A stretch of 64,000 nt of DNA from Escherichia phage vB_EcoM_TH18. The position numbers and the translations under genes were made by a program. Of this stretch, positions 3,937 to 47,382 are shown piece by piece. A model generated the notes under the pieces. That model worked only from the letters and a program-made list of their open reading frames with translations. It did not search any database and was not told where the DNA came from. Positions within the stretch are counted from its first letter, which is position 1, and each line of letters starts with the position of its first letter. The stretch lies in sequence record ON075799; one strand, 5' to 3'.

Positions 3937-4200
3937 TTATTGGTCTGACTCTTCTCTACGTTGTGATTCTACACCCCAGCGTAGGGATATTAACTTACTT
4001 ATTAACTGTGGAGCAGCCACTGTGGGGGCATACACCCACATATACCACTCCGTTAATGTGCCTTTGAAACCCCAATCTAAAAAAACTGCTGTCATTGCAG
4101 CTAATCCGATATTACTCCAAAATTTAGTGTGGGAGGCCTTTTCTGGATTTACTGGGGATCTGACAAGATCTTTTAAAAATTTCAATATTGATTTTAGCAT
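3937..4200 (-). CDS. Small hypothetical protein, possibly membrane-associated (87 aa)
   Basis: ORF tightly packed between fiber gene and membrane-protein gene; hydrophobic central segment. Confidence 0.3.
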   Translation of the reverse strand: MLKSILKFLKDLVRSPVNPEKASHTKFWSNIGLAAMTAVFLDWGFKGTLTEWYMWVYAPTVAAPQLISKLISLRWGVESQRREESDQ

Positions 4201-4215
4201 AATACATTAGAATCC

Positions 4216-4689
4216 TCAATAATTTACTCCAGGAACAATTCTGGCTATAATTATGAAACCAACAACAACAGAAGTCTCAAGCAATTCTTTTATTGTACCG
4301 CTTTTGTATGCGGCGCATAATAAAAGAACTTCCATAAATGTTGGATATGATGAATTTATCGTGAAGCCTAATGCGTTTGGTAAAATAAATGGGAACTGCA
4401 TAACTAAAATTTGGCAAAACAGAACAGGAAGAGATAGTACAAGCATTAGCTTTTTTCTCCATCCTGTCAAAACACATGCAGTAAAGAAAATCAGAGATAT
4501 ATCAAGGAACCAACAGAAAGTTAGGTAGAGTGACAAGTCAAATGCGTAGATATGGTAACAGAACCACCAGTATAATATATTCTCTGACACGATATGAACC
4601 ATGCCAAATACTGACATGGCTCGGATCCCCTTATCATTATCAAGAAGTAGCACTGCAAAGCATATAAAGTACAGTGCAGAACTTATCAT
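4216..4689 (-). CDS. Multi-pass integral membrane protein (157 aa)
   Basis: Several hydrophobic helices in translation; overlaps upstream ORF by 4 nt (operon coupling). Confidence 0.35.
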   Translation of the reverse strand: MISSALYFICFAVLLLDNDKGIRAMSVFGMVHIVSENILYWWFCYHIYAFDLSLYLTFCWFLDISLIFFTACVLTGWRKKLMLVLSLPVLFCQILVMQFPFILPNALGFTINSSYPTFMEVLLLCAAYKSGTIKELLETSVVVGFIIIARIVPGVNY

Positions 4690-5000
4690 TTCATTTGGCT
4701 CTCTATAAGAATTTTAAGTTGATCTATAAGATCAACTCTCAAACTGCTCACATCCTCTTTTAAATCTTTTCTAAAATCTGAAACATCGTCGCGGACAGCT
4801 TTCAGCTTTTTATCAAGAATCTCATCAAGTTTCTCTTTAGTGACCATCTCTGCCTTAATTCTTATGATGTCCCTATCAAGTTCATCAAGACGTTGTTGTG
4901 TCTTTTTATAGTCTGAGTATGTTAACTTCAGAACACCAACTAAGAAAAACGTCAATACGCCCCATACGGCTTTTAAGATAGCAAATAGGTCAATAGACAT
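4686..5000 (-). CDS. N-terminal transmembrane helix plus coiled-coil protein (104 aa)
   Basis: Hydrophobic N-terminus followed by charged heptad-like region. Confidence 0.35.
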   Translation of the reverse strand: MSIDLFAILKAVWGVLTFFLVGVLKLTYSDYKKTQQRLDELDRDIIRIKAEMVTKEKLDEILDKKLKAVRDDVSDFRKDLKEDVSSLRVDLIDQLKILIESQMK

Positions 5001-10981: not shown

Positions 10982-11039
10982 GATTATGCCTCCTCTTGTA
11001 AATTATTATAAGATGTGGTTATTTTACCACAATATGTCT

Positions 11040-11080
11040 TAATTATAAATAGTAAACACAAATAAAGGGGCATAAGCCCC
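11040..11080 (-). terminator. Hairpin ggggcataagcccc with T-run on minus strand
   Basis: GC stem-loop followed by U-rich tract in minus orientation, just 3-prime of ORF ending 11087. Confidence 0.45.
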
Positions 11081-11086
11081 TTTCCA

Positions 11087-14553: not shown

Positions 14554-14597
14554 AGAAACCTCACTTGTTATTGTATGATTTTATCATAAATATTTTA

Positions 14598-14627
14598 TTA
14601 AAACAACAAAAAGGGGCAAAAGCCCCT
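14598..14627 (-). terminator. Hairpin ggggcaaaagcccc with U-run on minus strand after tape measure gene
   Basis: GC stem-loop plus T-run in minus orientation directly after stop of 14633..17017. Confidence 0.5.
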
Positions 14628-14632
14628 TCAAA

Positions 14633-21350: not shown

Positions 21351-21415
21351 GAGAACTCCCGTTAAGGTATTTTACCACATTATTCAAGCAAAATCAATAA
21401 TTAGGAATACGATTG

Positions 21416-21934
21416 TCAATAATACCTGTGTTTTGGGTATCTCCGAGGAATACCGGGGACTCCTGTTTGAGGAACTATACCAGAAACATCAAACGGGCTT
21501 CTGGAGTTTGGATTGTTCTTGACACGCCAAAACTCATCCTGCCGCACACCACCCACAATAATCAAACCAGAGACACCATTCAGACAACTATTGACGTAAT
21601 CAGGGTTTTGCAGTAGCCAGTCCAGAAAATCTTTCCAGTTCTGGTATGACGAGCCACCTTTCACCTGTATTGTCTCATCACCTATCTTTTCCAATCTTTC
21701 TGTGATGGATGCCTCACCAGAATTTATCTCTTGAAGAATTAACCATCTTAACACAGCTACCATTGTGTTATAGACCACTTTCCACATATCGCAGGGCGTA
21801 GATGATGGATTAGGCCAGTTTGCTCTTTTTTTCTCCATCTCAAGGAATGCCATAATAACTTCATCAGGTAATGTCTCTGGGGATATTGACCCGAGCAGGA
21901 GCCTGATGTAATCAACAATTTCTTGGTCTGTCAT
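21416..21934 (-). CDS. Head-tail connector/adaptor candidate (172 aa)
   Basis: As above. Confidence 0.4.
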   Translation of the reverse strand: MTDQEIVDYIRLLLGSISPETLPDEVIMAFLEMEKKRANWPNPSSTPCDMWKVVYNTMVAVLRWLILQEINSGEASITERLEKIGDETIQVKGGSSYQNWKDFLDWLLQNPDYVNSCLNGVSGLIIVGGVRQDEFWRVKNNPNSRSPFDVSGIVPQTGVPGIPRRYPKHRYY

Positions 21935-22006
21935 CTAACTCTCCATTCTATGTTACTTGTTAGTAACTATATTATCACAAAATACAATTTTTGTCATTAA
22001 AAACGC

Positions 22007-22035
22007 TTGACACGAAAAATTCCACAGGTAAGATA
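22007..22035 (+). promoter_or_regulatory. Sigma70-like promoter (TTGACA, 17-nt spacer, AAGATA) for plus-strand moron
   Basis: Consensus -35 hexamer at 22007-22012 with weaker -10, about 25 nt upstream of SD GGAGGA and ATG at 22062. Confidence 0.4.
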
Positions 22036-22061
22036 AGTACAACAATTGCTATGGAGGATTT

Positions 22062-22466
22062 ATGAAAAATATTTTAAAAATTACAATTGGCCTGTGCGTC
22101 TGTGCTGTTATTGCAGCGGGAACTCTCCAATATGTGAAAAAGAACCCAGACATTAATGATTATAAATCTGTCGAGGCAAGTTGGTTGTCGCCAGAAGAAA
22201 AAGATGAGGCAATCAGCCGTATTGTGCAATTATCTTGCGATAAAAGATTCAGAGAAGCATTTAAGCCAGACGTTATTGTTGTGTCATCAGGCTTTGAAGG
22301 CAGGATCGCAGAGCAAGCGGAAGCATATCAATATTTTGATGATGTCGCAATTATCTCAGGAAAACAATCTTACACTGGAAAATACATCTGTACTTTTTAC
22401 AAAGATGGGCGTGAACCGTATATTAATGCAAACTTGAATAAGGGAGTACAAGAACTCCTAAAATAA
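22062..22466 (+). CDS. Secreted or lipoprotein-like protein (134 aa), opposite-strand insert in late module
   Basis: N-terminal signal-peptide-like hydrophobic segment (MKNILKITIGLCVCAVIAAG); own promoter, SD and terminator; only plus-strand gene within about 37 kb of minus-strand genes. Confidence 0.6.
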   Translation: MKNILKITIGLCVCAVIAAGTLQYVKKNPDINDYKSVEASWLSPEEKDEAISRIVQLSCDKRFREAFKPDVIVVSSGFEGRIAEQAEAYQYFDDVAIISGKQSYTGKYICTFYKDGREPYINANLNKGVQELLK

Positions 22467-22492
22467 AAGACCCCGAAGGGTCTTTTTATTAC
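22467..22492. terminator. Bidirectional intrinsic terminator (aagaccccgaagggtcttttt)
   Basis: Perfect GC-rich hairpin flanked by A-run and T-run, between convergent genes. Confidence 0.7.
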
Positions 22493-22746
22493 GACATAAT
22501 ACCAGCGGCTTTCAACTTGGCAAGCAAAGCATTAAAATCACTTACCAACGTAGAGACATCTGAAGCCATAGAATCTGCTTGTGTTTGTGCTTTCTTAACA
22601 CCTCCTAATGCCGATTCCGTAGCCGCTGGAAGAACATAGCTATCTGAGCCTCCAGCAACAATATCTTCGATTTTCACAGATTTTCCAGTTTTTATATCAA
22701 TAAGGCTTGATGCATATACTTTACCAGCCACACCTGTAGTTGCCAT
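22489..22746 (-). CDS. Small fiber-like protein (85 aa) sharing N-terminus with the 416-aa fiber protein
   Basis: N-terminal MATTGVAGKVYASSLIDIKTGK resembles MTATTGVGGLIYGRALVDQKTGK of 25110..26360. Confidence 0.45.
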   Translation of the reverse strand: MATTGVAGKVYASSLIDIKTGKSVKIEDIVAGGSDSYVLPAATESALGGVKKAQTQADSMASDVSTLVSDFNALLAKLKAAGIMS

Positions 22747-24547: not shown

Positions 24548-25113
24548 CCAACTTTTATCCTTTGTAATTCCTCAACTGTAGAGGCTGAAAGCACTTGGTC
24601 TTTCATTTCTCGTTGCTTAGTGTATATTGAATCATTCTTAGTTGCCAACTCGGAAGACATAGCTACAACAAAATTTTCAAATTCAGAACTACTCATCTCA
24701 ACAGGTTTGTTATCAGCATCTCTCCAAATCACAGCTTGTTTAGCCGGAGATGCTTTTTGTGCTAATAATACTGGATAAATACGACATAAGGTTGCATTAT
24801 CAACATCATACCTTGCACCATTATAAGAAACAATAGTCGTAGAGCTTTCTTCCAGTTTTCTCCACTCTTTTATTTCTGATAACATCTGTTGCTTTAATGC
24901 CTCGATAAATTGAGGGTTTGCTGTATACGGGGCAATCTCTCCAAAACTACCAGATTGTAAGGAATCCCAAACTGCTTTCCCAGTTTCACTATAGTCGTTG
25001 CTAGAAGCGGTGTATGGGAGATAATCAGAAAAACCATTAAAAAGTACCAGACAATCAACGTCACCATTAAGAAGATATTGTGGAGACTTAATATCTTTAA
25101 TATCCAGCATCAT
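24541..25113 (-). CDS. Hypothetical protein (190 aa)
   Basis: ORF overlapping neighbours by a few nt. Confidence 0.4.
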   Translation of the reverse strand: MMLDIKDIKSPQYLLNGDVDCLVLFNGFSDYLPYTASSNDYSETGKAVWDSLQSGSFGEIAPYTANPQFIEALKQQMLSEIKEWRKLEESSTTIVSYNGARYDVDNATLCRIYPVLLAQKASPAKQAVIWRDADNKPVEMSSSEFENFVVAMSSELATKNDSIYTKQREMKDQVLSASTVEELQRIKVGW

Positions 25114-26360
25114 GCGATCCTCATAAAAAGACCAATATAACCTGTATCAGTACCATTTTTATTGCTTGGTGAACCGGATAAGGCTATAAACGTACCTCGC
25201 TGTGTTTCAGTACTGTGTGTAACAGAAACTGGCGTACTTTGAAATGCACCTGTTGTGGAAACCTTACTATAAAGAGTTATACAGCCTATGCGGGAACCTG
25301 GGATGGTCTGACCACGAACAAGTTTTCTGTTTGAATCAGTGTTCGAAGCGCCAAGATACACTCCCAACATCACCCCTCCAACATCAGGACTTCCCCATGT
25401 GTTTCCTACGGTTGATTGTAAATAGGAGAATTGTCCTTTTATATTTACCCAATCACCATCAGCAAAACTGGTTAGTAAGCGATAATAATACAATTCACCA
25501 TTTATGCCATAAAAATAGGCATGTTTACTATTTTTTGCTGCTTGCTCTGCATTCTCTGCTGGATATGGTGACAATACCTCAACCATACCTTTAAAAGTAA
25601 TCCCTTCAATAATACGTGTGTCACCTGAAGATAAATCTTGGTGAACAAGGTAACGACCAGGTTGTGCACTTCTCAACCAAGAAACCCATTCCTCTGGCCC
25701 ATTCTTCTCTTGAAAAACAACTTCTTTCTCGGCAGGGATAAACGCCCCAAAACCAAATGCCCCTGGTAAAGATACTACCCCATCTGTGGCATCATAGATA
25801 TCGTTTTGTACACCTTTTGTGGCAGCGGTTTTTATACCCAAGTAATCAAGAACCCCAGTTTTTGAATCTTGCCCTATGATAACTCGACCAACAGCAGAGA
25901 GATTTGCCAAAGCCATTACGTTTTTATCACTGAAATAAGCTAATTTATTTCCAGCAGTAATCAATCCTGACAAAGATGTCAGTATTTCACTCAACGGTTG
26001 TTTACCAGCAAGAGCGTTAGTGATTGTTGTTGCAAAGTTCGGGTCATCGCCTAATGCCTTCGCTAATTCATTGAGAGTATCTAATGTTTCAGGCGCTGAG
26101 TCAGCCAATTTTGCAATTAAACCCTTCACATATTCTACATTAGCTATTTCCTTTCCAATAGCATCATCCAACGGTGTTGGTGCTTGAGGGTTCCCTGTAA
26201 AGATAGGACTGTCTAAAGGAGCTTTGGATGCAATAAGATCCGTTATATCTTCTGGAATATTCCCACCACCCAACTCATCAAAATTTATTTTCTTTCCTGT
26301 TTTCTGGTCAACCAATGCACGACCATAAATTAAACCACCAACACCTGTTGTTGCTGTCAT
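25110..26360 (-). CDS. Fiber protein with SPIFTGNPQAPTP motif (416 aa)
   Basis: Same motif and identical 41-bp nucleotide stretch as tail fiber gene 2172..3926; shares C-terminal domain with 22757..24547. Confidence 0.55.
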   Translation of the reverse strand: MTATTGVGGLIYGRALVDQKTGKKINFDELGGGNIPEDITDLIASKAPLDSPIFTGNPQAPTPLDDAIGKEIANVEYVKGLIAKLADSAPETLDTLNELAKALGDDPNFATTITNALAGKQPLSEILTSLSGLITAGNKLAYFSDKNVMALANLSAVGRVIIGQDSKTGVLDYLGIKTAATKGVQNDIYDATDGVVSLPGAFGFGAFIPAEKEVVFQEKNGPEEWVSWLRSAQPGRYLVHQDLSSGDTRIIEGITFKGMVEVLSPYPAENAEQAAKNSKHAYFYGINGELYYYRLLTSFADGDWVNIKGQFSYLQSTVGNTWGSPDVGGVMLGVYLGASNTDSNRKLVRGQTIPGSRIGCITLYSKVSTTGAFQSTPVSVTHSTETQRGTFIALSGSPSNKNGTDTGYIGLFMRIA

Positions 26361-26389
26361 TGCTTAACTCCTTGAAAAAAAAAAACATT

Positions 26390-26899
26390 TTATGATGCTT
26401 CTAATTCAGATTTAAGATCAGCAATCATCTTTTCAAAGGATTTGTTTTTAGTTAGTGTAACACCTTTAGAAAGTGCAAACTCAACTAATCTATCTTTACT
26501 ACCTTTTTTATCAGCTTCATCATTCAGAGACATTGCTTCCTCTAAAATCAGATCAATAGATAGATTTTCTTTATCAGCCTTTTTATCTTGCACTTCTACA
26601 ATCTTGGCATCAACTACCTTACCCAAGTTTTTCGGACTAGGGATATCTTTGTTGAAGAACACGATATAAGATCCCATACGAATAGTAGAGTGCTGTGCAT
26701 CAACATCTAAACCAGACAGCTCTGCAAGAGCAGTGAAAAACTCAACAGTGTTTCTGAATGCTTTGTGTTGTGTTCCCACACATAAACCGTTCAAAGGTAG
26801 TCTTGCTGAGACCGCTGCATTTAATTGCGGGGCGTATGCACCAAAAAACTTAAATAATTCCACCTTATTAGGGAAAATACGATAATTTTGATTCGCCAT
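26390..26899 (-). CDS. Hypothetical protein (169 aa)
   Basis: ORF downstream of major capsid gene. Confidence 0.4.
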   Translation of the reverse strand: MANQNYRIFPNKVELFKFFGAYAPQLNAAVSARLPLNGLCVGTQHKAFRNTVEFFTALAELSGLDVDAQHSTIRMGSYIVFFNKDIPSPKNLGKVVDAKIVEVQDKKADKENLSIDLILEEAMSLNDEADKKGSKDRLVEFALSKGVTLTKNKSFEKMIADLKSELEAS

Positions 26900-37899: not shown

Positions 37900-37975
37900 T
37901 GGTGTGACGGACAGGATTCGAACCTGTGACCACCTAGTCTTCAGCAAGGCACTCTACCAACTGAGTTACCGTCAC
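37900..37975 (-). tRNA. tRNA-Phe (anticodon GAA)
   Basis: Hand-folded cloverleaf: acceptor GUGACGG/CCGUCAC, T-arm ACAGG-UUCGAAU-CCUGU, anticodon loop CUGAAGA, CCA encoded. Confidence 0.75.
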
Positions 37976-37980
37976 ATAAT

Positions 37981-38057
37981 TGGTGGGCGATGAGGGACTC
38001 GAACCCCCAAAATTCAGGTTCTAAGCCTGACATGTATACCAATTCCATCAATCGCCC
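37981..38057 (-). tRNA. tRNA with anticodon UAG (Leu by anticodon) but class I architecture
   Basis: Acceptor GGGCGAU/AUCGCCC, anticodon arm UCAGG-CUUAGAA-CCUGA, 5-nt variable loop, A73, CCA encoded. Confidence 0.6.
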
Positions 38058-38305
38058 ATCTATATTAACAGTTATGGTTTTCCACGATACACAGAAATAG
38101 TTTTCCCATTAGCATTGATAACATAAGCGGTCTGATCCTCAGACAAAAACACTTTTTGATCAATGCCGGAAATAGCTATAGACTTTTGATGAGCACAATA
38201 CCCAACAATTTTCCCACAAAAAATTTGTTCATCATTTGGAGAGACGACTTTAACTGTTAACATGGTATCCTCTGTACATTTCTGCTTTGATATGTTTATG
38301 TTTGT

Positions 38306-38383
38306 TGGTCTGTCCGGTTGGATTTGAACCAACGACCTGGTCATCCCAAGTGACCCGCGCTACCCAAGCTGCGCTACGGACAG
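38306..38383 (-). tRNA. tRNA-Pro (anticodon UGG)
   Basis: Acceptor CUGUCCG/CGGACAG, anticodon loop CUUGGGA, T-arm GUUGG-UUCAAAU-CCAAC. Confidence 0.75.
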
Positions 38384-38467
38384 AGAAATGTAGATTTTAA
38401 TTGTCCCAGAATCTACTAACTGGTATCGCTGGCTAGGTGATATCTGTGACTTGATTAAGTCAAGAAT

Positions 38468-38559
38468 TGGCGGTTCCTGAAGGATTCGAACCTTCGGTGG
38501 GGAGATTCATTCCCAACGGCTTAACAGGCCGTCACCATCGACCACTCGGTCAAAGAACC
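38468..38559 (-). tRNA. Class II (long variable arm) tRNA with anticodon GUU (Asn by anticodon)
   Basis: 92 nt; acceptor GGUUCUU/AGGAACC, D-arm with CCGAGUGG, anticodon arm ACGGC-CUGUUAA-GCCGU, 20-nt variable arm, T-arm GAAGG-UUCGAAU-CCUUC, G73, CCA. Confidence 0.6.
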
Positions 38560-38568
38560 TGAATATTT

Positions 38569-38645
38569 TGGTGGATCTGGTTGGGGTCGAACCAACAATC
38601 TCTCGATTAAAAGTCGAGTGACTTAAACCATTTGGCTACAAATCC
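38569..38645 (-). tRNA. tRNA-Lys (anticodon UUU)
   Basis: Acceptor GGAUUUG/CAGAUCC, anticodon arm CUCGA-CUUUUAA-UCGAG. Confidence 0.75.
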
Positions 38646-38878
38646 GTTAAATTATCTTTAAAATAGCTAATTACTCGCACATAATTAGCTATACGCAACA
38701 ACTCTCCAAGGAGAGCACACTAATGATCGATTACGATTATATGACTAAATTTAGACCATCATAAGTGTTTGGCTTACGCCAGTAAAGAGCGGACTGCTCT
38801 GGGGTATCGGTAAGATGGTTGCAGCCATCTACCGAAAAATCACACCAAGCAACTAAACAAGCTACATTAAAGATAACT

Positions 38879-38967
38879 TGGAGGAGGCTGACAGAATCGA
38901 ACTGTCACCATATCTCTACAGCGGGACTGGGTTCAAACCAGCTTGTGCACCATGCACCCCAGCCTCC
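38879..38967 (-). tRNA. tRNA-Ser (anticodon UGA), class II
   Basis: Acceptor GGAGGCU/AGCCUCC, anticodon arm GCUGG-UUUGAAC-CCAGU, long variable arm, T-arm GACAG-UUCGAUU-CUGUC. Confidence 0.7.
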
Positions 38968-39038
38968 AAAGATAGCCTCTGCCGAGGATATACACCCAAC
39001 AAAGGAGGCGCTCAGGTCAGAAGAAATCTGAGCCTTAA

Positions 39039-39132
39039 TGGAGGAAGATGCCAGACTTGAACTGGCACACCCATTTCTGGGTTACTATCTCCTTAGCAGG
39101 GAGATCCCTTACCAAATTAGGGTTAATCTTCC
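39039..39132 (-). tRNA. tRNA-Ser (anticodon GCU), class II
   Basis: Acceptor GGAAGAU/AUCUUCC, anticodon arm UCUCC-CUGCUAA-GGAGA, long variable arm, T-arm GCCAG-UUCAAGU-CUGGC. Confidence 0.7.
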
Positions 39133-39153
39133 AATACCTTAGTAATTAAAAAC

Positions 39154-39243
39154 TGGTGGAGAAGGAGAGAATCGAACTCTCAAGCCGTTTTACCAGTCAG
39201 CACATTTCCAATGTGCTTTCGTCGCCAATCGATTTGCTTCTCC
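39154..39243 (-). tRNA. tRNA-Ser (anticodon GGA), class II
   Basis: Acceptor GGAGAAG/CUUCUCC, anticodon arm GCACA-UUGGAAA-UGUGC, T-arm GAGAG-UUCGAUU-CUCUC; D-arm irregular. Confidence 0.65.
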
Positions 39244-39252
39244 GTTTTAACT

Positions 39253-39328
39253 TGGCAGGGGATGGTTGATTCGAACAACCGATCACGGGGTCAAAGCCCG
39301 TTGCATTAGGCCACTATGCTAATCCCCT
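39253..39328 (-). tRNA. tRNA-Gln (anticodon UUG)
   Basis: Acceptor AGGGGAU/AUCCCCU, D-stem GCAU/AUGC, anticodon arm ACGGG-CUUUGAC-CCCGU. Confidence 0.75.
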
Positions 39329-39331
39329 TTT

Positions 39332-39409
39332 GCACGAGAGTGAGGAATAGAACCTCTTAGTCACTGGTTTTGGAGGCCAGCCTTCACCCAGTGAAGTTAC
39401 GCTACTCTC
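39332..39409 (-). tRNA. tRNA-like remnant (probable pseudo-tRNA)
   Basis: Acceptor-like GAGAGU/ACUCUC and T-arm-like GAGG-UUCUAUU-CCUC, but no canonical anticodon arm. Confidence 0.2.
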
Positions 39410-39417
39410 ATTAAAAA

Positions 39418-39975
39418 CTATTTTCGAAAAGGACTTATGAAAAATGCCAACATCACTCTCTCTCTTGAAAAAGCTCTGTCTTCAGGAACCACACTCTTCA
39501 GTTTCCAACCGACATAAATTCGCCAGTAAAATTGTTTTCCAAACAATCTAAAAGACGGGACAAACGCGAATACACCCCACGCATTGTCATTCCACATCAA
39601 CAAATAGCCTTGTTGGTTATCCTCCACATCAGAGCTTACATGGAGGTTTCCTTTCCACTTTGTCACAGATGTGATTTCACGTCCAAGTACGTGATAGGAG
39701 AAATTGTAGGCTTTATTTCTCCACAACCAAGCAACTCGTTGTAGGTAAACACCAAAACTTCCTATTTTACGGACTTCTTCCCATCTCTCTATGTGTCCTC
39801 TATCACCGTCTATAGGATTATCATATGTCTCCATCCACCTGAAAATATAAGGCAGATGCCCTGTCTTCTCATTATAGAACGGAACAACAAAAGGAGCCAG
39901 AATAACACAGAGAACCGACATAACTGGGTCAAGAGGTGCTAACAGGATCCACGATAAATATTTTAAGTATCTCAT
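39418..39975 (-). CDS. Hypothetical membrane-associated protein (185 aa) embedded in tRNA cluster
   Basis: Hydrophobic N-terminal helix; Trp-rich. Confidence 0.35.
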   Translation of the reverse strand: MRYLKYLSWILLAPLDPVMSVLCVILAPFVVPFYNEKTGHLPYIFRWMETYDNPIDGDRGHIERWEEVRKIGSFGVYLQRVAWLWRNKAYNFSYHVLGREITSVTKWKGNLHVSSDVEDNQQGYLLMWNDNAWGVFAFVPSFRLFGKQFYWRIYVGWKLKSVVPEDRAFSRERVMLAFFISPFRK

Positions 39976-40327
39976 GCAGGATCAAGCCTAGATATAATGT
40001 ACTGGTTTAAATCTGAATATGGGAAGATACTTTCAAAGATAACCTGTTTAAATCTGAAGCCGCACAAACCGAAAAGTACCTTCTGACACTCACCAAAAGA
40101 GCAATCTTTACCAACTTTTATCACAACCGTATCGGCAATCTGCACACTTTCTATCTCTTTAGATTCATGATGCCGTACTATGATTACTTTAGAAACCATC
40201 ATACTCGTCCATATTAAAGCCTTCTACTAAAGATAGTAGATGTCTAGGGTTGGACCGCAAACGCAACCCCATGGAATTTGTTACGGTCTTCAGTTGACCC
40301 AAGCGGATTTCATTGACATCTTTTAAC

Positions 40328-40402
40328 TGGAGCATCCAGAGGGTATCGAACCCTCGACTTCAGCTTGGAAGGCTGTAGTTTTCCCAATTAAACTATGGAT
40401 GC
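40328..40402 (-). tRNA. tRNA-Gly (anticodon UCC)
   Basis: Acceptor GCAUCCA/UGGAUGC, anticodon loop CUUCCAA, T-arm GAGGG-UUCGAUA-CCCUC. Confidence 0.7.
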
Positions 40403-40407
40403 ATATT

Positions 40408-40483
40408 TGGTGGGAGTGGTAGGCTCTGCCCCTACGTCCTCTCGATTATCGGTCGAGCGATCTACTAACTGATCTACACTCCC
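40408..40483 (-). tRNA. tRNA-shaped gene, anticodon GAU (Ile by anticodon), with non-canonical D-, anticodon- and T-loops
   Basis: All four stems perfectly paired, but T-loop is GGCAGAG (no UUC), D-loop AGUUAGUA lacks GG, anticodon loop CCGAUAA has C33. Confidence 0.55.
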
Positions 40484-40551
40484 AAACTGTACTGGCCCAA
40501 CAACCACGATTGGAGGGTATCGTCACACATCAAAGCCAGTACAGTTTTAGT

Positions 40552-40641
40552 TGGTGTGCCGTGATAGAGTCGAACTACCCGAGTCCCTTTCGAGACAGGA
40601 GATTTACAGTCTCCCCCGCTACCCCTACGGTCTAACGACAC
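40552..40641 (-). tRNA. tRNA-Tyr (anticodon GUA), class II
   Basis: Acceptor GUGUCGU/ACGGCAC, anticodon arm GGAGA-CUGUAAA-UCUCC, long variable arm, A73. Confidence 0.7.
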
Positions 40642-40642
40642 A

Positions 40643-40990
40643 TTAACCTTGTTTGAATTGAACAATATCCGTCGAGAACGGTTTAGCTGCCTTAATAGGT
40701 GCTTTTTCTGAGTTATCTTTTTCGAGTAACTCTTCGTTTTCCTCATCAAAGTAATCAGAAAGCATCTGCTCACCTTTCTCAATAACATAACGAGCTATAT
40801 TTTCTCTGATATTGTCTTTTGTATTCACATTCTTCATCAAATCCCTAAGAACCTGATGAGCTTCAGGAATCATTGCAATCAGATTCGTTTTTAAATCTAG
40901 GATATTTTTCTCTAACTGAATTGCATTAGATTCCTCTTTCAGAGGACGACCTTTTCCTCTTCTACGTTTTGTAAGCTGCTTAGTAGCCAT
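40643..40990 (-). CDS. Hypothetical basic/acidic protein (115 aa from MATKQL…)
   Basis: ORF trimmed to Met downstream of a consensus sigma70 promoter; longer listed ORF would overlap tRNA-Cys. Confidence 0.4.
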   Translation of the reverse strand: MATKQLTKRRRGKGRPLKEESNAIQLEKNILDLKTNLIAMIPEAHQVLRDLMKNVNTKDNIRENIARYVIEKGEQMLSDYFDEENEELLEKDNSEKAPIKAAKPFSTDIVQFKQG

Positions 40991-41009
40991 TTTAAAACCC
41001 CACTTAATG

Positions 41010-41038
41010 ATATTATCAAATAAAAACATATCTGTCAA
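41010..41038 (-). promoter_or_regulatory. Consensus sigma70-like promoter on minus strand (TTGACA, 17-nt spacer, TAATAT)
   Basis: Minus-strand reading TTGACAgatatgtttttatttgaTAATAT, about 20 nt upstream of ATG at 40990. Confidence 0.55.
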
Positions 41039-41075
41039 GTGGTATTTTAACATATTTACCAAGAAATTGAAAGTT

Positions 41076-41152
41076 TGGAGCACGGTGTCGGACTTGAACC
41101 GACATATATCTGTTTTGCAGACAGATCCGTAACCAAATTCCAGCAACCGTGC
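41076..41152 (-). tRNA. tRNA-Cys (anticodon GCA)
   Basis: Acceptor GCACGGU/ACCGUGC, anticodon arm UCUGU-CUGCAAA-ACAGA, T-arm GUCGG-UUCAAGU-CCGAC. Confidence 0.7.
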
Positions 41153-41228
41153 AATAAGTACCCCAGGTAGAGAACCTATAGAGTGGGTCTTACGAGCCGC
41201 GCTGACGATTCTCAAGTTGGGGTTAATC

Positions 41229-41305
41229 TGGTCGAGGAGACAGGATTCGAACCTGTGACCTACGGCTTAGAAGGCCGCTGCTCTATCCAACTGAGCTACA
41301 CCCCG
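41229..41305 (-). tRNA. tRNA-Arg (anticodon UCU)
   Basis: D-arm GCUC-AGUUGGAUA-GAGC, anticodon arm GCGGC-CUUCUAA-GCCGU, T-arm ACAGG-UUCGAAU-CCUGU; acceptor has one U-U mismatch. Confidence 0.7.
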
Positions 41306-41505
41306 AAAATAAGAATGCTTTATAGTGTATGGTTACTCAACCTCACTCCAACTTCCACAGTTGGTGCTCTACGAGCATGACTACGTTTGAAATCAACGTT
41401 GCGCACCGATAGCTTTCTCACGCATTGTATGCCTCATTCCCAACAAATGCTGATCAGACATTTATATCGAATAATATAAGCTAATACACTATAAAACAAA
41501 CTTGT

Positions 41506-41602
41506 GGCTGGGTGATGGAATCGAACCACCTATGTATTCAACGGCTTCCCCGTCTATTTTCAGGATTATAAATCCTCGCCCTTGCCAAAGGGCTTACCCA
41601 GC
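41506..41602 (-). tRNA. Atypical 97-nt tRNA-like gene (possible anticodon UAU) with about 30-nt extra segment
   Basis: Canonical acceptor GCUGGGU/ACCCAGC, D-arm GCCC-UUUGGCAA-GGGC, T-arm GGUGG-UUCGAUU-CCAUC; anticodon region is a 4-bp stem with loop UUUAUAA followed by 30 extra nt; CCA not encoded. Confidence 0.35.
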
Positions 41603-41604
41603 AT

Positions 41605-41679
41605 TGGTGCTCGCAGCAGGTTTCGAACCTGCAACCCCCTGCTTACAAGGCAGGTGCTCTACCGTTGAGCTATACGAGC
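41605..41679 (-). tRNA. tRNA-Thr (anticodon UGU)
   Basis: Acceptor GCUCGUA/UGCGAGC, anticodon arm CCUGC-CUUGUAA-GCAGG, T-arm GCAGG-UUCGAAA-CCUGC. Confidence 0.75.
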
Positions 41680-42044
41680 AATAAGACATTGCTTCCGATT
41701 AACAGCCTTGAGGCTTTACAGACCATATCTTGTGAGCCATAACCTGTGCCAAGGATTTCAGATGATAAACGAAATTTTATCTTTCAAGAGTCAACTTTCA
41801 AGTTTCATCTTTTACATTTAACCATTGACCTTTATTGTATGAACTTTTACTTAGTGGAAACAACAAGGCATCTTCGTGTGCCTCGCTGCATCTATGTCCT
41901 GTATTATCCTCATACATATACGATACATGGTGGGGGATATTTAACCTCCAACCCCCAGGAGGCAAGATGATGTAAACTTCGTTAATCAAAAGCAATGTTT
42001 TAAATTTCAAAACAAAGGAACGATAATGATATTATCAGAGCCTT

Positions 42045-42692
42045 TTAGAGAGAGTGCTCAATCTCAATTTCTGTCTTAGCGTTTGACTCAGACAACGCAA
42101 AATCAACGTTAGACAAGAAATCTTCAATCTCTTCTTCAAGAGAACGAATCTTAGAAGCCAGTTCAAGAGGATCCACAACCGATGGTGTGTTCATCATTCG
42201 AATAGGAGCTTCCACAGTCTTAATCTGCTCTGCATCTGGCGCTTTATCACGTTGGATATATGGCGCTCTTGCATTTTCAAGTTTATCTTCCAGAGATTTT
42301 TCTTCTTTTGCCAGAAGAAGCTGTGCAGAAGCACGCTGTGCACAAAGTTTGTTTAACAACTCTTGTTTAAAGCAAATCGTCCGTTTGCGTTCGATTGCCT
42401 CAGCAACTGTCATAGACACATTACCAATTTTGACAATTGTCTCAGCATTAGACTTAACAATTTTTGCTTTCAGTTCATCACGCACTGCCAAGAGGTCTTG
42501 CAGACTTTGATAGTCGTTGATCGCAGATTTCTTAAAATCATCAACAGAGCCGATATAACCCGGAATCTTACAATTATTCTCAGTTCCTTTTGCAATCTTA
42601 ATACAATCAAGATTGTAGATACGCTTATTGATCTTATCTTCAATTTTAGAGATAGAAGCAAGTGCACGAGTTACGGAAATCTTAGTAGACAT
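42045..42692 (-). CDS. Hypothetical protein (215 aa)
   Basis: ORF with coiled-coil-like charged regions. Confidence 0.4.
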   Translation of the reverse strand: MSTKISVTRALASISKIEDKINKRIYNLDCIKIAKGTENNCKIPGYIGSVDDFKKSAINDYQSLQDLLAVRDELKAKIVKSNAETIVKIGNVSMTVAEAIERKRTICFKQELLNKLCAQRASAQLLLAKEEKSLEDKLENARAPYIQRDKAPDAEQIKTVEAPIRMMNTPSVVDPLELASKIRSLEEEIEDFLSNVDFALSESNAKTEIEIEHSL

Positions 42693-43033
42693 GCGATCTC
42701 TCCTATGTAAATCAGCTTTGATAAAGTAACTATCCAGAAAAACAAAAACTATGTCAAGAAAAATTTTAATCTTTTACAGCATCTTTTATAGAATCACAAA
42801 GATCTTGAACAACATCAGATGTCGGTGACAAAATCATCTCGTCGGCTGCTGCTATAGCATCTGATGCTAAATCAACAAACGGAGTTGTTACCGCAGAAGT
42901 CACTTCAACAGCCGTTATTGTTACTTCGCTTGCAATCTTAAGCAAAGATCCTATCATAATCTCAACCCTCCTGAATATCCGTGATTCCCTTTATTTAACG
43001 ACGCTGGCTCACGGTGGCACTCTCGTCAATAAA

Positions 43034-43357
43034 CTATTTTTTAGTTTTCTTACCGTTTTCTACAGAAATGCTTGTTTTCTGTTTCGCTTCTCGTTCGCGC
43101 TTTGTTTTCCCAGTGCGAATACGATATGAAGCAGAAATAACTTCACCACCAATGACACGAGACACAGATTCGTAATACATTTCAGTATTACCGTCTTCAT
43201 CTTTGCGTTTTTTCAGAACTGCTACAGTTTGCGTTTTACCACCAAGGCGCACATCGTGCGGTGCAGAATGTGTCTGCGTGGATTTTGATCCAAACTGAAA
43301 AGGTTGCTTTATCGCCTCGATAGCTGACACCTTTTTAGCAGACTGTTTCTTAGCCAT
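43034..43357 (-). CDS. Hypothetical basic protein (about 107 aa from MAKKQSAKK…)
   Basis: Lys/Arg-rich small protein. Confidence 0.4.
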   Translation of the reverse strand: MAKKQSAKKVSAIEAIKQPFQFGSKSTQTHSAPHDVRLGGKTQTVAVLKKRKDEDGNTEMYYESVSRVIGGEVISASYRIRTGKTKREREAKQKTSISVENGKKTKK

Positions 43358-43409
43358 TAAGTTTTCTCCTCCGAAAACAATAAACATAGTTTATTTCGTG
43401 TGCCACATT

Positions 43410-43486
43410 TGGTGGCCCCTGCTGGACTTGAACCAGCGACCAAGCGATTATGAGTCACCTGCTCTATCCAACTGAGCTAAGGGGCC
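43410..43486 (-). tRNA. tRNA-Met (anticodon CAU; elongator-type or lysidine-modified Ile2 not distinguishable)
   Basis: Acceptor GGCCCCU/AGGGGCC with G1-C72, anticodon loop CUCAUAA, T-arm GCUGG-UUCAAGU-CCAGC. Confidence 0.75.
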
Positions 43487-43818
43487 GAATCTCTTAATAT
43501 GAGATGATATTATCCTGTATGATCTACATTGTCAAGAGATATTTTAAAATTTTATACATCCCAGTTTTCTTCTTGATAACAACCTTCCCCGAATCCAACT
43601 TCTTTTTCAAAATCAATACCTTTTTTCATACATTCCTCACATTAACAGATATTGTTTTCAAACTCAAAACGTAAAATACGAACTCTGTCAATACACTGCT
43701 GTAATCTACAAAGCAACAACTCAACTTGTTTATGCGTCTCTTCAGTATACGTTTTGGTCATCTTGCTTTTCTCCGTGATCTTTTCATTGCAGCTTCTGCA
43801 CGTCTTTGTTTACGATTT

Positions 43819-44067
43819 TTAGATGGTTGTTCTAAGGATCCTGATAACGTACTTTGTTGTGCTAATCCCTTCGATGGGGTAGAAATAATATAATCCCCCT
43901 TCTTCACCGAACGATGCAATATATTTCCAGGATTCAATTCCAAAACCAGTTGTAGAAAAAGCGACATCATCCGCTTCTTCAAGCGCATCATCATGTGTTT
44001 TATGGAAAGACTCATGTTCTACGTACTCCCCGTTATCAGACTTAAGAACCATTTTTAATTTAAACAT
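43819..44067 (-). CDS. Hypothetical small protein (82 aa)
   Basis: Preferred over overlapping alternative-frame ORF 43758..44015 on composition. Confidence 0.3.
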   Translation of the reverse strand: MFKLKMVLKSDNGEYVEHESFHKTHDDALEEADDVAFSTTGFGIESWKYIASFGEEGGLYYFYPIEGISTTKYVIRILRTTI

Positions 44068-44135
44068 AACAAATCACCACTAATTTTATTTTTATCTTGT
44101 TATTAGATCTTATCAGTGGTGTTTATTTTTGTCAA

Positions 44136-44342
44136 TTAAACTATTCCAAAAGCCTTGACACCACGCTCGTATTCTGCTACTGCAAGCTCATGAGGAGAAA
44201 GGTCACATGAGGCATCCTTGCAAAGACCGACTTCGATGTAATGTTCTTCTAGTCCATCAAGGATATCTGGCTCCCACGCTTTTTTCATGTCTGGATGGAC
44301 TGATGCACGATTTCTATCGTACTTCGCTACGAGATTTCTCAA
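44136..44342 (-). CDS. Hypothetical small protein (68 aa)
   Basis: ORF with plausible SD. Confidence 0.35.
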   Translation of the reverse strand: MRNLVAKYDRNRASVHPDMKKAWEPDILDGLEEHYIEVGLCKDASCDLSPHELAVAEYERGVKAFGIV

Positions 44343-44395
44343 AACATTCTCCTCAAAATAAAAACCCCTCCATGTGGAGGGGAATGATTATGGTG

Positions 44396-46111: not shown

Positions 46112-46174
46112 GATCTCAACCCTCCAACCTAAAAGCGTATTTTTTCACTAAAACGTATCTTTGTCAAGATGTAA

Positions 46175-46984: not shown

Positions 46985-47382
46985 GATTTATCTCCTCTAG
47001 CACGATTGACGATAATATAATTTCTTGGTTTCACGTTACCATCAGAATCCTGAAATCCTGATCTGACACGCCTGACATAACCAAAGCTCTCCATCCGAGA
47101 CAGAAATTCAGACACTTTGGTTCGTGAGTTTTCGTTCCACCCCAACAGACCACACAAGGATTGCTGTGACGGAAAGAATACCAGTTCCCCACCCAAGGGG
47201 TTCCGACTCTTGAAATACTCGTATCTCCACAACAAGCGTATCAGTCTTTGCAGATCGCTTGGTGATAACCGTTCATCAAAAACCCACTCTGTCGGCACAG
47301 CGATGTACGACCCAGCTTTCGGATTTACATGGAAACCCCCAACATTCGATTTCAAGGCAAACTCCGGTGTGTAATTCAACAC
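46981..47382 (-). CDS. Hypothetical protein (133 aa), first gene of the leftward unit
   Basis: ORF overlapping PRPS-like start by 4 nt. Confidence 0.4.
   Translation of the reverse strand: MLNYTPEFALKSNVGGFHVNPKAGSYIAVPTEWVFDERLSPSDLQRLIRLLWRYEYFKSRNPLGGELVFFPSQQSLCGLLGWNENSRTKVSEFLSRMESFGYVRRVRSGFQDSDGNVKPRNYIIVNRARGDKS

What the first reader, a model, noticed from the sequence alone, without database searches (positions are those of the whole stretch)
22007..22492. Opposite-strand secreted/lipoprotein gene with its own promoter and terminator inside the late structural module
Seen in sequence: 22062..22466 is the only plus-strand gene within about 37 kb of minus-strand late genes; it has a TTGACA-type promoter, strong SD, a signal-peptide-like N-terminus and a perfect bidirectional terminator. 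Established knowledge: such inserts in late operons are typically morons encoding host-interaction functions (superinfection exclusion, envelope modification). Inference: a moron expressed independently of late transcription.
Basis: partly seen in the sequence, partly recalled or inferred. Interest (0 to 1): 0.5.

Follow-up and report, generated by a model that had tools for sequence, protein, structure and literature searches.

The report
Conserved antisense membrane gene in phage
A small gene pointing the wrong way inside the head-and-tail gene block of an E. coli phage is real, has its own conserved host-type promoter, and encodes a protein anchored in the inner membrane and predicted to face the periplasm; it is an ordinary kind of accessory gene, fixed in one clade of related phages, with no tested function, and my best guess is that it protects the infected cell envelope from further phage attack.

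Summary
The window is an Avunavirus (Vequintavirinae) phage. ORF 22062-22466 (+) is the only non-nested plus-strand gene in the roughly 37 kb minus-strand structural block. It has a TTGACA-N16-TAAGAT promoter, a GGAGG ribosome-binding site and a perfect 9-bp hairpin with T-runs on both sides. Across eight loci from three named genera plus metagenomes, the -35 and the key -10 positions are invariant and the hairpin is conserved. dN/dS against Av-05 is 0.18.

The protein is not a lipoprotein: 19 homologues have no lipobox, and the N-terminal cysteines are not conserved. It reads best as an uncleaved N-in/C-out signal anchor plus a periplasmic cystatin/NTF2-like domain with two invariant cysteines.

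The family (PHROG 11434) is an orphan, found in 65 Avuna-, Seuna- and Mydovirus records, always at this junction and always antisense. Six related lineages lack it; most of them already have a terminator followed by a promoter there. So promoter and ORF were inserted between pre-existing signals, and the "own" terminator is probably ancestral.

The function is untested. My best guess (about 0.4) is an early, envelope-acting superinfection-exclusion-type protein. The moron reading is partly supported. Interest is modest.

The parts
21416..21934 (-). Flanking late gene: head-tail adaptor (rV5 gp057-like, PF26075 Phage_Adaptor_PhiTE family, phrog_2663). It is the first gene of the neck/tail transcription unit.
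   Evidence: ORF. phrog_2663 at E 5e-60. PF26075 on the orthologues. Found in 268 phage records.
21968..21997 (-). Promoter for the adaptor and neck/tail genes, reading leftward: -35 ATGACA (21997-21992) and an extended -10 TGTGATAATATA (21979-21968). It is back-to-back with the plus-strand promoter.
   Evidence: Found by the scanner. The blocks TGTCAT and TTATCA are invariant. The same AATGAC-N17-TGATAAnAT element precedes the adaptor gene in CR3, A5-4 and LTH01, which lack the insert. It resembles TGTGGTAAAATA in other late-gene gaps and the rV5 late motif TggTAaAAtA (PMC3606486).
21998..22006 (.). A-tract (TAAAAACGC) between the two -35 hexamers; it looks like an UP element.
   Evidence: AAAAA is invariant in 8 loci. 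The phage's other TTGACA promoters also carry an upstream TTAAAA(A) tract, though 2-4 nt further from the hexamer.
22007..22034 (+). Sigma-70-type promoter of the membrane-protein gene: TTGACA, 16 nt, TAAGAT. The predicted transcription start is near 22041.
   Evidence: The -35 and the T, A and final T of the -10 are invariant in 8 loci, most of which also have a TGn extended -10. It is the only intergenic, ORF-facing perfect TTGACA promoter in the 0-40 kb structural block. A TTGACA at this position is absent from four of the six outgroup junctions; CR3 has one overlapping its ATGAC box, and Henunavirus has one near the ribosome-binding site.
22053..22057 (+). Shine-Dalgarno sequence GGAGG, 4 nt upstream of the ATG.
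   Evidence: Read from the sequence. A GGAG/GAGG motif is present at this position in the homologous loci.
22062..22466 (+). Coding sequence, 134 aa, a member of PHROG 11434 ('membrane protein').
   Evidence: ORF. phrog_11434 at E 5.7e-65 over its full length. dN/dS 0.18 against Av-05. 65 phage records carry it.
22062..22142 (+). Residues 1-27: short basic N-terminus (MKNILK) plus a hydrophobic helix, read as an uncleaved signal anchor (N-in/C-out).
   Evidence: AF2 predicts a helix at residues 2-27. The uncharged stretch is 19-24 residues in 18 of 19 homologues (16 in one). There is no lipobox, no positionally conserved signal peptidase site, and a net +1/+2 charge on the N side. dN/dS is 0.45, so the segment looks like a generic anchor. 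The PVP-SE1 record notes 1 TM segment by TMHMM and Octopus.
22143..22463 (+). Residues 28-134: soluble alpha+beta domain (helix 44-64 packed on a five-stranded antiparallel sheet) with a cystatin/NTF2-like fold. Cys59 and Cys110 are invariant, as are the motifs SWLSxEEK, CDxxFR and YIC. Predicted to be periplasmic.
22465..22486 (.). Bidirectional intrinsic terminator shared by the two convergent genes: AAAAGACCC-CGAA-GGGTCTTTT. On the late strand the loop reads UUCG and is followed by UUUUAUUUU. It fills the whole 22-nt gap between the two stop codons.
   Evidence: Fold. Conservation and one compensatory pair. Annotated as two rho-independent terminators in the PVP-SE1 record. Analogous UUCG hairpins sit directly upstream of the adaptor promoter in several lineages that lack the gene.
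22489..22746 (-). Flanking late gene: short head-fibre protein (85 aa), convergent with the membrane-protein gene; the last gene of the upstream late unit.
   Evidence: PF11133 at E 1.4e-17. It is also present in Henunavirus, so its distribution is wider than that of the membrane gene.

Best explanation
This is a clade-specific accessory cassette in a virulent-type Vequintavirinae phage. A sigma-70-type promoter, a ribosome-binding site and a 134-aa ORF were inserted antisense into a pre-existing terminator-promoter junction, between the head-fibre gene and the head-tail adaptor gene.

Shown in silico:
- The promoter, ORF and terminator are conserved.
- The ORF is under purifying selection.
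- The cassette is fixed in position and orientation in Avuna-, Seuna- and Mydovirus phages and is absent from six related lineages.

Inferred steps:
- Unmodified host RNA polymerase transcribes the gene from about 22041 early in infection.
- The transcript ends at the shared hairpin. That hairpin also stops late transcripts coming from the head genes, and the back-to-back leftward promoter restarts neck and tail transcription.
- The protein inserts in the inner membrane as an uncleaved N-in/C-out signal anchor.
- Its cystatin/NTF2-like domain folds in the periplasm, with a Cys59-Cys110 disulfide.

Most likely function (inference, not tested): the domain binds a conserved periplasmic or inner-membrane-exposed target and protects the already infected cell from secondary infection. 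It would do so by interfering with the tail tip, tail lysin or DNA-entry step of incoming related phages. That is superinfection exclusion of the T4 Imm/Sp or HK97 gp15 type, not receptor masking.

My confidence is about 0.85 for the architecture, expression independence and membrane-anchored topology, and about 0.4 for the exclusion mechanism itself.
For: Gene and signals:
- Real ORF, promoter, ribosome-binding site and hairpin.
- Eight-locus footprint: invariant -35, invariant -10 key positions, variable spacer.
- Hairpin core always paired, with one compensatory change.
- dN/dS 0.18 overall, 0.084 in the soluble domain, 0.45 in the anchor.

Timing:
- Perfect TTGACA promoters with an upstream A-tract otherwise cluster in the non-structural regions of this phage.
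- A similar UP/-35/-10 element was proposed as the early promoter of the sister genus Certrevirus (PMC7344957).

Topology:
- No lipobox in 19 homologues; an uncharged segment of 19-24 residues in 18 of them; a basic N-terminus; no conserved cleavage site.
- AF2 helix at residues 2-27.
- Two invariant cysteines only in the soluble domain.

Accessory and clade-specific:
- 65 records carry it, against 268 for the adjacent adaptor gene.
- It is absent at the junction in rV5, Henunavirus, Certrevirus, A5-4, LTH01 and Plateaulakevirus.
- Synteny is identical in Av-05, PVP-SE1, GAP31, KB57, Mydo and two metagenomic contigs.
- It sits between an ancestral terminator and promoter.

Target is conserved rather than receptor-specific:
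- The soluble domain keeps invariant charged and aromatic motifs across phages of Escherichia, Salmonella, Cronobacter, Klebsiella and Proteus, whose neighbouring fibre genes differ.
- Its dN is 3-6 times that of the adaptor gene, as expected for an interaction protein.

Precedent:
- HK97 gp15 is an inner-membrane protein encoded in a tail operon that blocks superinfection without masking the receptor (PMC3594210).
- T4 Imm and Sp block DNA injection and the incoming phage's peptidoglycan degradation (PMC11436027).
Against: - There is no experimental datum for any family member.
- Early timing is inferred from promoter type only; no RNA-seq data were found.
- The A-tract sits 2-4 nt closer to the -35 than in the other promoters.
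- The periplasmic location and the disulfide are inferred; model coordinates could not be inspected.
- A secondary table lists 'PVP-SE1_gp065' among PVP-SE1 structural proteins. By RefSeq locus tag that would be this gene, although the product name fits gene 65.
Confidence: 0.4

Rival explanations
1. Same cassette and topology, but the periplasmic domain acts on a host envelope component rather than on incoming phage. It could inhibit or sequester a periplasmic or outer-membrane protease or a peptidoglycan hydrolase, or blunt an envelope-associated defence or stress response, so that the infected cell stays intact and productive.
For: - The best fold matches are cystatin-type protease inhibitors, latexin and a PepSY-type protein.
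- The invariant surface motifs are kept across hosts from five genera, which fits a conserved host target.
- Early-type promoter.
Against: - The cystatin inhibitory motifs (QxVxG hairpin, PW) are not present in the sequence (read).
- The fold similarity is generic, and NTF2-like enzymes and scaffolds score equally well.
- No PADLOC or Pfam link.
- No candidate target has been identified.
Confidence: 0.2
2. It is a lysis-timing regulator of the T4 RI antiholin type: a weakly anchored periplasmic sensor that delays holin triggering when the cell is superinfected.
For: - The architecture resembles RI: a short protein with an N-terminal Gly/Ala-rich hydrophobic segment and a small periplasmic domain. 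That description of RI is from my own knowledge.
- The anchor is rich in Gly, Ala, Thr and Cys, and evolves fast.
- No holin has been identified in this phage group (PMC9862379).
- The endolysin has no adjacent lysis cassette.
Against: - No sequence or fold relation to RI: no PHROG other than 11434 matched, and no phage lysis protein appears among the listed structure matches.
- The candidate late-strand membrane cluster at 3937-5000 encodes proteins without a large periplasmic domain for such a sensor to bind.
- The uncharged segment is of full transmembrane length (19-24 residues, mean Kyte-Doolittle about 2.0), which does not obviously suggest a releasable anchor.
Confidence: 0.15
3. It is a virion or assembly protein of the head-tail junction that merely happens to be encoded on the other strand.
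For: - It lies between the head-fibre and adaptor genes in every genome.
- 'PVP-SE1_gp065' appears in a list of PVP-SE1 structural proteins in Table S6 of PMC11370258.
Against: - An N-terminal signal anchor would route the protein to the membrane, away from cytoplasmic assembly (established knowledge).
- Its promoter is of the host sigma-70 type, not the motif upstream of the late genes.
- Six related lineages with the same virion genes lack it.
- The table mixes two numbering schemes, and the product name fits gene 65.
Confidence: 0.04
4. It is an outer-membrane lipoprotein that masks the phage receptor, as T5 Llp or phi80/N15 Cor do.
For: - The window protein has Cys12 and Cys14 in its hydrophobic N-terminus.
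- It lies near fibre genes in Avunavirus.
Against: - No [LVI][ASTVI][GAS]C lipobox in any of 19 homologues, and 15 of the 19 have no cysteine in the first 30 residues.
- In Mydovirus no fibre gene is adjacent.
- The soluble domain stays conserved while the fibres differ.
Confidence: 0.03
5. It is a chance or decaying ORF, or the 'adenosine deaminase' or 'portal protein' that some records call it.
For: It is labelled 'adenosine deaminase' in phages 18-1-2, 19-1-2 and 24-2-1, and 'putative portal protein' in Salmonella phages 19 and GEC_vB_MG.
Against: - dN/dS 0.18, full-length conservation in 65 records, and conserved promoter and ribosome-binding site.
- No deaminase, portal or other significant family hit in Pfam (best whole-protein E 0.0035, in a single member) or in NCBIfam, even at permissive thresholds.
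Confidence: 0.01

Closest known systems
HK97 gp15 moron (superinfection-exclusion protein encoded inside a tail operon)
   Same: - A small inner-membrane protein gene sits inside a structural operon as its own transcription unit.
- It is present in some relatives and absent in others.
- It blocks phage at a step after adsorption without masking the receptor (PMC3594210).
That is the mechanism I consider most likely here.
   Different: - HK97 is temperate, and gp15 is expressed from the prophage; this phage group is annotated as virulent.
- Morons are described as having a deviant GC content; this gene's GC is ordinary.
- This cassette is antisense and appears to borrow an ancestral terminator.
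- No sequence similarity was detected: phrog_11434 is the only PHROG match.
T4 Imm and Sp (Spackle), the early superinfection-exclusion proteins of a virulent myovirus
   Same: - They are envelope-located products of a virulent myovirus that prevent DNA injection and peptidoglycan degradation by incoming phage (PMC11436027).
- They give the best functional analogy for an early, periplasm-facing protein in a lytic phage.
   Different: - No sequence match.
- The fold here is alpha+beta, cystatin/NTF2-like. From my own knowledge, Sp is all-helical and Imm is a small polytopic membrane protein.
- The genomic setting differs: here the gene lies inside the late block.
T5 Llp and phi80/N15 Cor (receptor-masking lipoproteins)
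   Same: They are small, envelope-targeted exclusion proteins (Cor: PMC11436027). From my own knowledge, T5 llp is an early gene lying next to, and opposite, the late receptor-binding-protein gene, which is a similar antisense early-in-late layout.
   Different: - They are lipoproteins that act on FhuA at the outer membrane.
- This family has no lipobox, is predicted to be anchored in the inner membrane, and does not co-vary with the fibre genes.
VirB8/TraE/DotI-type bitopic proteins (N-terminal TM helix plus periplasmic NTF2-like domain)
   Different: - There is no type IV secretion context.
- The domain is shorter.
- Sequence identity is 6-9%, and there is no sequence-family match.
This is a structural analogy only.
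PHROG 11434 / RefSeq 'membrane protein' (Av05_0081, PVP-SE1 gene 66, GAP31_206, KB57_068, Mydo gp241)
   Same: This gene is a full-length member (E 5.7e-65). It is 84% identical to Av05_0081 and 39-57% identical to the Seuna- and Mydovirus proteins.
   Different: Nothing differs. The family simply has no assigned function beyond 'membrane protein', and its PHROG category label 'moron, auxiliary metabolic gene and host takeover' is not based on any experiment I could find.

Membership tests
Moron (as defined in PMC3594210) | Extra DNA present between genes that are adjacent in related phages | tested here: met
   The gene is absent at the junction upstream of the adaptor gene in rV5, Henunavirus, Certrevirus, A5-4, LTH01 and Plateaulakevirus. 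It is present in 65 records.
Moron (as defined in PMC3594210) | Own promoter | tested here: met
   The TTGACA-N16/17-TAnnnT footprint is invariant in 8 loci. A TTGACA at that position is absent from four of six outgroup junctions. This is in silico only; the transcription start has not been mapped.
Moron (as defined in PMC3594210) | Own terminator | tested here: inconclusive
   A functional-looking bidirectional hairpin follows the gene. However, outgroups without the gene carry an analogous hairpin directly upstream of the adaptor promoter, so it is probably ancestral and shared.
Moron (as defined in PMC3594210) | GC content different from the surrounding genes | tested here: not met
   Gene GC is 0.375, against 0.399 +/- 0.026 for 31 late ORFs.
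Moron (as defined in PMC3594210) | Expressed from a repressed prophage to the benefit of the lysogen | not testable with these tools
   Every record found is a phage genome. The exhaustive protein search found only five small clusters and no clear bacterial homologue. I did not look for lysogeny genes in the window.
Bacterial lipoprotein (Llp/Cor type) | Lipobox [LVI][ASTVI][GAS]C at the end of the signal peptide | tested here: not met
   0 of 19 homologues match, and 15 of the 19 have no cysteine in residues 1-30.
Sec-secreted soluble periplasmic protein | Short hydrophobic region followed by a conserved signal peptidase I site (small residues at -3 and -1) | tested here: inconclusive
   The uncharged segment is 19-24 residues in 18 of 19 homologues. 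Candidate sites are not positionally conserved, and two homologues have none. No SignalP-type predictor was available. An uncleaved anchor is favoured.
PHROG 11434 | Full-length match to the family HMM | tested here: met
   E 5.7e-65, residues 1-134 on profile positions 1-134 of 134.
Cystatin superfamily protease inhibitors | Cystatin fold | tested here: met
Cystatin superfamily protease inhibitors | Inhibitory motifs (QxVxG in hairpin 1, PW in hairpin 2) and a sequence-family match | tested here: not met
   Neither motif appears in alignment A2. There was no cystatin Pfam hit at E up to 5 in 17 members.
Known phage exclusion or lysis-control families (T4 Imm, Sp, RI; P22 SieA; HK97 gp15) | Detectable sequence homology | tested here: not met
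   The only PHROG hit is 11434. No Pfam, NCBIfam, PADLOC or PDB-sequence hit. That these families are represented in those libraries is my assumption.
Adenosine deaminase (the label in records OK136180, OK181858 and OK181861) | Match to a deaminase family or fold | tested here: not met
   No Pfam or NCBIfam match at permissive thresholds. The fold is cystatin/NTF2-like.

The most novel reading that the evidence does not exclude
PHROG 11434 is a previously uncharacterised family of inner-membrane-anchored, disulfide-stabilised periplasmic proteins with a cystatin/NTF2-like fold. Virulent Seuna-, Mydo- and Avunavirus phages would express it immediately after infection to shut the envelope against further injection by relatives, for example by binding the incoming tail tip or tail lysin. 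That would make it a structurally new class of superinfection-exclusion protein. It would also show how such a gene can be domesticated by slotting it antisense between an existing terminator and promoter.
Probability: 0.3. Interest if true: 0.55.

Novelty: new member of a known kind. Interest (0 to 1): 0.3.

Why it matters
Seunavirus, Mydovirus and Avunavirus phages (PVP-SE1, KB57-like Klebsiella phages, Av-05) are being studied for biocontrol and therapy. If this conserved early envelope protein excludes related phages, it would affect how phage cocktails behave, and it would be a defined gene to delete or exploit.

It is also a clean example of how a lytic phage holds an early gene inside its late block. 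The gene sits antisense between an ancestral terminator and promoter, so one hairpin insulates both directions.

Beyond that it is an ordinary accessory gene of unknown function. Databases already list it as 'membrane protein'.

Tried and rejected
Homology and structure searches that led nowhere:
- Pfam, NCBIfam and PADLOC gave no significant hit, even at permissive thresholds and over 17 members.
- A profile search against PDB sequences gave no hit at E up to 10.
- Foldseek against PDB had a best E of 0.07, and BFVD returned only a family member.
- AFDB50 was not available.
- The word-indexed protein search found only close relatives.
- The exhaustive phmmer search added only five small clusters plus two long repeat proteins, P0019 and P0020. 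I judge those spurious: they are repeated short matches around a Cys motif.

Literature that could not be obtained or gave nothing:
- The PVP-SE1 proteomics paper could not be read.
- The HK97 gp15 paper is not held.
- The CB7 supplements are not held.
- No RNA-seq data were found for these genera.
- Table S6 of PMC11370258 lists 'PVP-SE1_gp065' as structural, but it mixes gene-number and locus-tag naming and has lost its bold marking. I could not use it either way.

Ideas rejected:
- Lipoprotein.
- Adenosine deaminase or portal protein.
- Horizontal import visible in base composition.
- Holin. The promoter is early-type, the cytoplasmic N-terminus is only about 5 residues, and the anchor evolves fast. 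Other late-strand membrane genes exist at 3937-5000, though PHROGs gives them no lysis label.
- Co-acquisition with the head-fibre gene, because that gene is also present in Henunavirus.
Full report
**What the window is.** The region is 100% identical to Escherichia phages 18-1-2, 19-1-2 and 24-2-1, and about 91% identical to Escherichia phage Av-05 (Vequintavirinae, genus Avunavirus). The surrounding minus-strand genes are head, neck, tail and fibre genes: tail sheath, Neck1, head-completion protein, adaptor, head fibre, fibres and major capsid protein.

**Checking the observation.**
- ORF 22062-22466 (+), 134 aa, exists. It is the only plus-strand ORF of at least 90 aa not nested in a longer minus-strand ORF between 1 and about 47.4 kb.
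- The promoter is TTGACA (22007-22012), 16 nt, TAAGAT (22029-22034). GGAGG (22053-22057) lies 4 nt before the ATG.
- On one sequence a promoter match means little. The scanner found 34 such sites in 15 kb, against 36.2 expected by chance.
- The hairpin at 22465-22486 has nine perfect pairs, dG -11.4 kcal/mol and z = -3.5. It has T-runs on both strands and fills the whole 22-nt gap between the two convergent stop codons.
- GC skew changes sign over the gene, as expected for a switch of coding strand.

**The signals are conserved, which is what makes them credible.** I aligned the intergenic region from eight loci: the window, Av-05, PVP-SE1, GAP31, KB57, Mydo and two metagenomic contigs.
- The -35 CTTGACA is invariant.
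- The T, A and final T of the -10 are invariant at 16-17 nt spacing, and most loci add a TGn extended -10.
- The spacer varies freely, and a GGAG/GAGG motif precedes the ATG.
- The terminator core is paired in all seven distinct sequences, with one compensatory A-U to G-C exchange.
- The PVP-SE1 depositors had already annotated two opposed rho-independent terminators here.
- Perfect TTGACA promoters with an upstream TTAAAA(A) tract otherwise cluster in the non-structural parts of the window (41-47.6 kb on the minus strand, 52-60 kb on the plus strand). The site at 22007 is the only intergenic, ORF-facing one in the structural block, although its A-tract sits 2-4 nt closer to the hexamer.
- A comparable UP/-35/-10 element was proposed as the early promoter of the sister genus Certrevirus (PMC7344957).
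- From these points I infer early, host-polymerase-dependent expression. No transcript data were found.

**The gene is real and under selection.** Against Av-05, dN/dS is 0.18 overall, 0.084 in residues 29-134 and 0.45 in residues 1-28. The neighbouring adaptor gene gives 0.035. The protein diverges faster than its structural neighbours: it is 50-57% identical to the Seunavirus proteins and 39% to the Mydovirus proteins, against 75-82% for the adaptor.

**What the protein is.**
- It matches PHROG 11434 ('membrane protein') over its full length at E 5.7e-65. Nothing else matched: Pfam, NCBIfam, PADLOC and PDB sequences gave nothing significant, even at permissive thresholds and over 17 members.
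- An exhaustive HMMER search of 1.84 billion representative proteins found only five small clusters, plus two long repeat proteins whose short multi-stretch matches I regard as spurious. The family is an orphan restricted to this phage clade.
- The labels 'adenosine deaminase' and 'putative portal protein' in some records have no support.
- Cys12 and Cys14 of the window protein are not conserved. None of 19 homologues has a lipobox, and 15 of them have no cysteine in the first 30 residues.
- The uncharged N-terminal stretch is 19-24 residues in 18 of the 19 homologues (16 in the other) and follows a net +1/+2 N-terminus. There is no positionally conserved signal peptidase site.
- AlphaFold2 (pLDDT 87.8) predicts a continuous helix at residues 2-27, a helix at 44-64 and five antiparallel strands. 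The PVP-SE1 record notes one TM segment by TMHMM and Octopus.
- I therefore read the protein as an uncleaved N-in/C-out signal anchor. The fast-evolving anchor and the strongly constrained soluble domain suggest that the function lies in the soluble domain.
- Cys59 and Cys110 are invariant, as are SWLSxEEK, CDxxFR and YIC. A disulfide, and hence a periplasmic location, is a reasonable inference, but I could not inspect the model coordinates.

**Distribution and origin.**
- The gene occurs in 65 phage records of Avuna-, Seuna- and Mydovirus.
- In every locus examined it lies between the adaptor gene and the short head-fibre gene, always antisense.
- The adaptor gene occurs in 268 records. At the same junction, rV5, Henunavirus pEp_SNUABM_01, Certrevirus CR3, A5-4, LTH01 and Aeromonas phage 4L372XY have only co-directional genes.
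- 71 records have an adaptor at least 60% identical. That equals the 65 carriers plus six Erwinia records, so I see no loss within the clade. I did not check each record individually.
- The head-fibre gene also exists in Henunavirus, where an EPS depolymerase gene occupies the slot instead. This junction is therefore an insertion hot spot.
- The lineages without the gene already have, directly upstream of the adaptor gene, a terminator hairpin (often with a UUCG loop). In CR3, A5-4 and LTH01 it is followed by an AATGAC-N17-TGATAAnAT promoter.
- In the carrier clade, the promoter, ribosome-binding site and ORF sit exactly between these two elements, in reverse orientation. The terminator and the leftward promoter are thus most probably ancestral, and only the promoter and ORF are new.
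- The leftward promoter (ATGACA ... TGTGATAATATA, 21997-21968) resembles TGTGGTAAAATA in other late-gene gaps and the rV5 late motif (PMC3606486).
- Gene GC (0.375) is within one standard deviation of the late genes (0.399 +/- 0.026), so base composition shows no trace of recent import.

**How it most likely works.**
- Shown in silico: a conserved, independently signalled, purifying-selected, clade-specific cassette that encodes a membrane-anchored protein.
- Inferred: early transcription by host polymerase, and termination at the shared hairpin. That hairpin also ends the upstream late unit, so late transcription does not normally run antisense through the gene.
- Also inferred: restart of neck and tail transcription from the back-to-back promoter, insertion of the protein N-in/C-out, and folding of its domain in the periplasm.
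- For function I commit to superinfection exclusion at a post-adsorption step, with confidence about 0.4. The protein is predicted to be made early and to face the periplasm from the inner membrane. It is accessory and evolves faster than its structural neighbours. It also keeps invariant surface-type motifs across phages whose adjacent fibre genes and hosts differ, which argues for a conserved target rather than a particular receptor.
- The precedents are HK97 gp15 (PMC3594210) and T4 Imm and Sp (PMC11436027).

**Rival explanations.**
- A host-directed envelope inhibitor or anti-defence factor (0.2). The fold is consistent with this, but the cystatin inhibitory motifs are absent.
- An RI-like lysis-timing sensor (0.15). 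No holin is known for the group and the endolysin has no cassette. But there is no similarity to RI, and the candidate late-strand membrane proteins at 3937-5000 lack a periplasmic partner domain.
- A virion or assembly protein (0.04).
- A receptor-masking lipoprotein (0.03).
- A spurious or misannotated gene (0.01).

**Verdict.** The moron interpretation is partly supported: the cassette is a moron-like, independently transcribed accessory gene. But it is old and fixed in its clade, compositionally ordinary, not a lipoprotein, and apparently uses a pre-existing terminator. It belongs to a catalogued family (PHROG 11434) that no one has characterised. I rate it a new member of a known kind, with modest interest (0.3).

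Noticed in passing
window 3937-5000 (minus strand): Three consecutive late-strand membrane-protein genes sit among the fibre genes: 87 aa (1 TM, phrog_1322), 157 aa (about 4 TM, phrog_7451) and 104 aa (N-terminal TM plus coiled coil, phrog_5345). They are equivalent to PVP-SE1 genes 42-44. The layout looks like a holin/spanin-type lysis cluster, in a phage group for which no holin has been identified, but no library gives them a lysis label.
   Followed up: partly
window 10982-11086, 14554-14632, 21351-21415, 21935-22061 (minus strand): The late block is punctuated by terminator-promoter pairs. A GC hairpin (for example GGGGCTTATGCCCC) is followed by TGTGGTAAAATA or TATGATAAAATC, close to the rV5 late motif TggTAaAAtA. 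The late genes therefore seem to be transcribed as several short units rather than one operon.
   Followed up: partly
window about 26360-26390; Av-05 NC_025830 at 41.7 kb versus 114-118 kb: Synteny with Av-05 breaks here. In the window the capsid genes follow the fibre gene directly. In the Av-05 record they lie about 60 kb away on the other strand, and DprA-like, protease and methyltransferase genes follow instead. Av-05 is also only 121 kb, against about 145 kb for its relatives. This is either a real rearrangement or an assembly problem in that record.
   Followed up: partly
window 37903-43486 (minus strand): A cluster of 13 tRNA genes lies between the structural block and the region of small ORFs. 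Several of the sigma-70-like TTGACA promoters lie in and just beyond it (41038-47564).
   Followed up: no
window about 47450-47540: A roughly 90-bp tract of almost pure A/T, made of TATA/ATAT repeats, sits at the divergence point between the minus-strand block and the plus-strand block. Imperfect direct repeats (GATTCGA, TCGAATC, TCGATGA) follow at 47595-47680. It could be a regulatory or replication-origin-like region.
   Followed up: no
window 22492-22746 and 25113-26360 (minus strand): The 85-aa 'head fibre' protein and the 416-aa fibre protein share an N-terminal motif (ATTGVxGxxYxxxLxDxKTGK; 14 of 31 identical, E 1e-07). This suggests a common attachment module on fibres of very different length.
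   Followed up: partly
GenBank records OK136180, OK181858, OK181861, KR296684, MW006477: The homologous gene is mislabelled as 'adenosine deaminase' in phages 18-1-2, 19-1-2 and 24-2-1, and as 'putative portal protein' in Salmonella phages 19 and GEC_vB_MG. No family or fold evidence supports either label.
   Followed up: yes
Table S6 of PMC11370258; PVP-SE1 gene 66 (L003 3932-4336): [quoted passage not shown] By RefSeq locus tag that is the membrane-protein gene; by product name it is gene 65, the adaptor. The table mixes the two numbering schemes, so whether the protein was ever detected in virions remains unresolved.
   Followed up: partly
Klebsiella phages vB_Kpn_K54_rec1, rec3 and rec6 (PQ569687, PQ569689, PQ569692): In these recombinant phages the tblastn match to the membrane protein covers only residues 2-115. 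The C-terminal strand and helix may be altered or truncated there.
   Followed up: no
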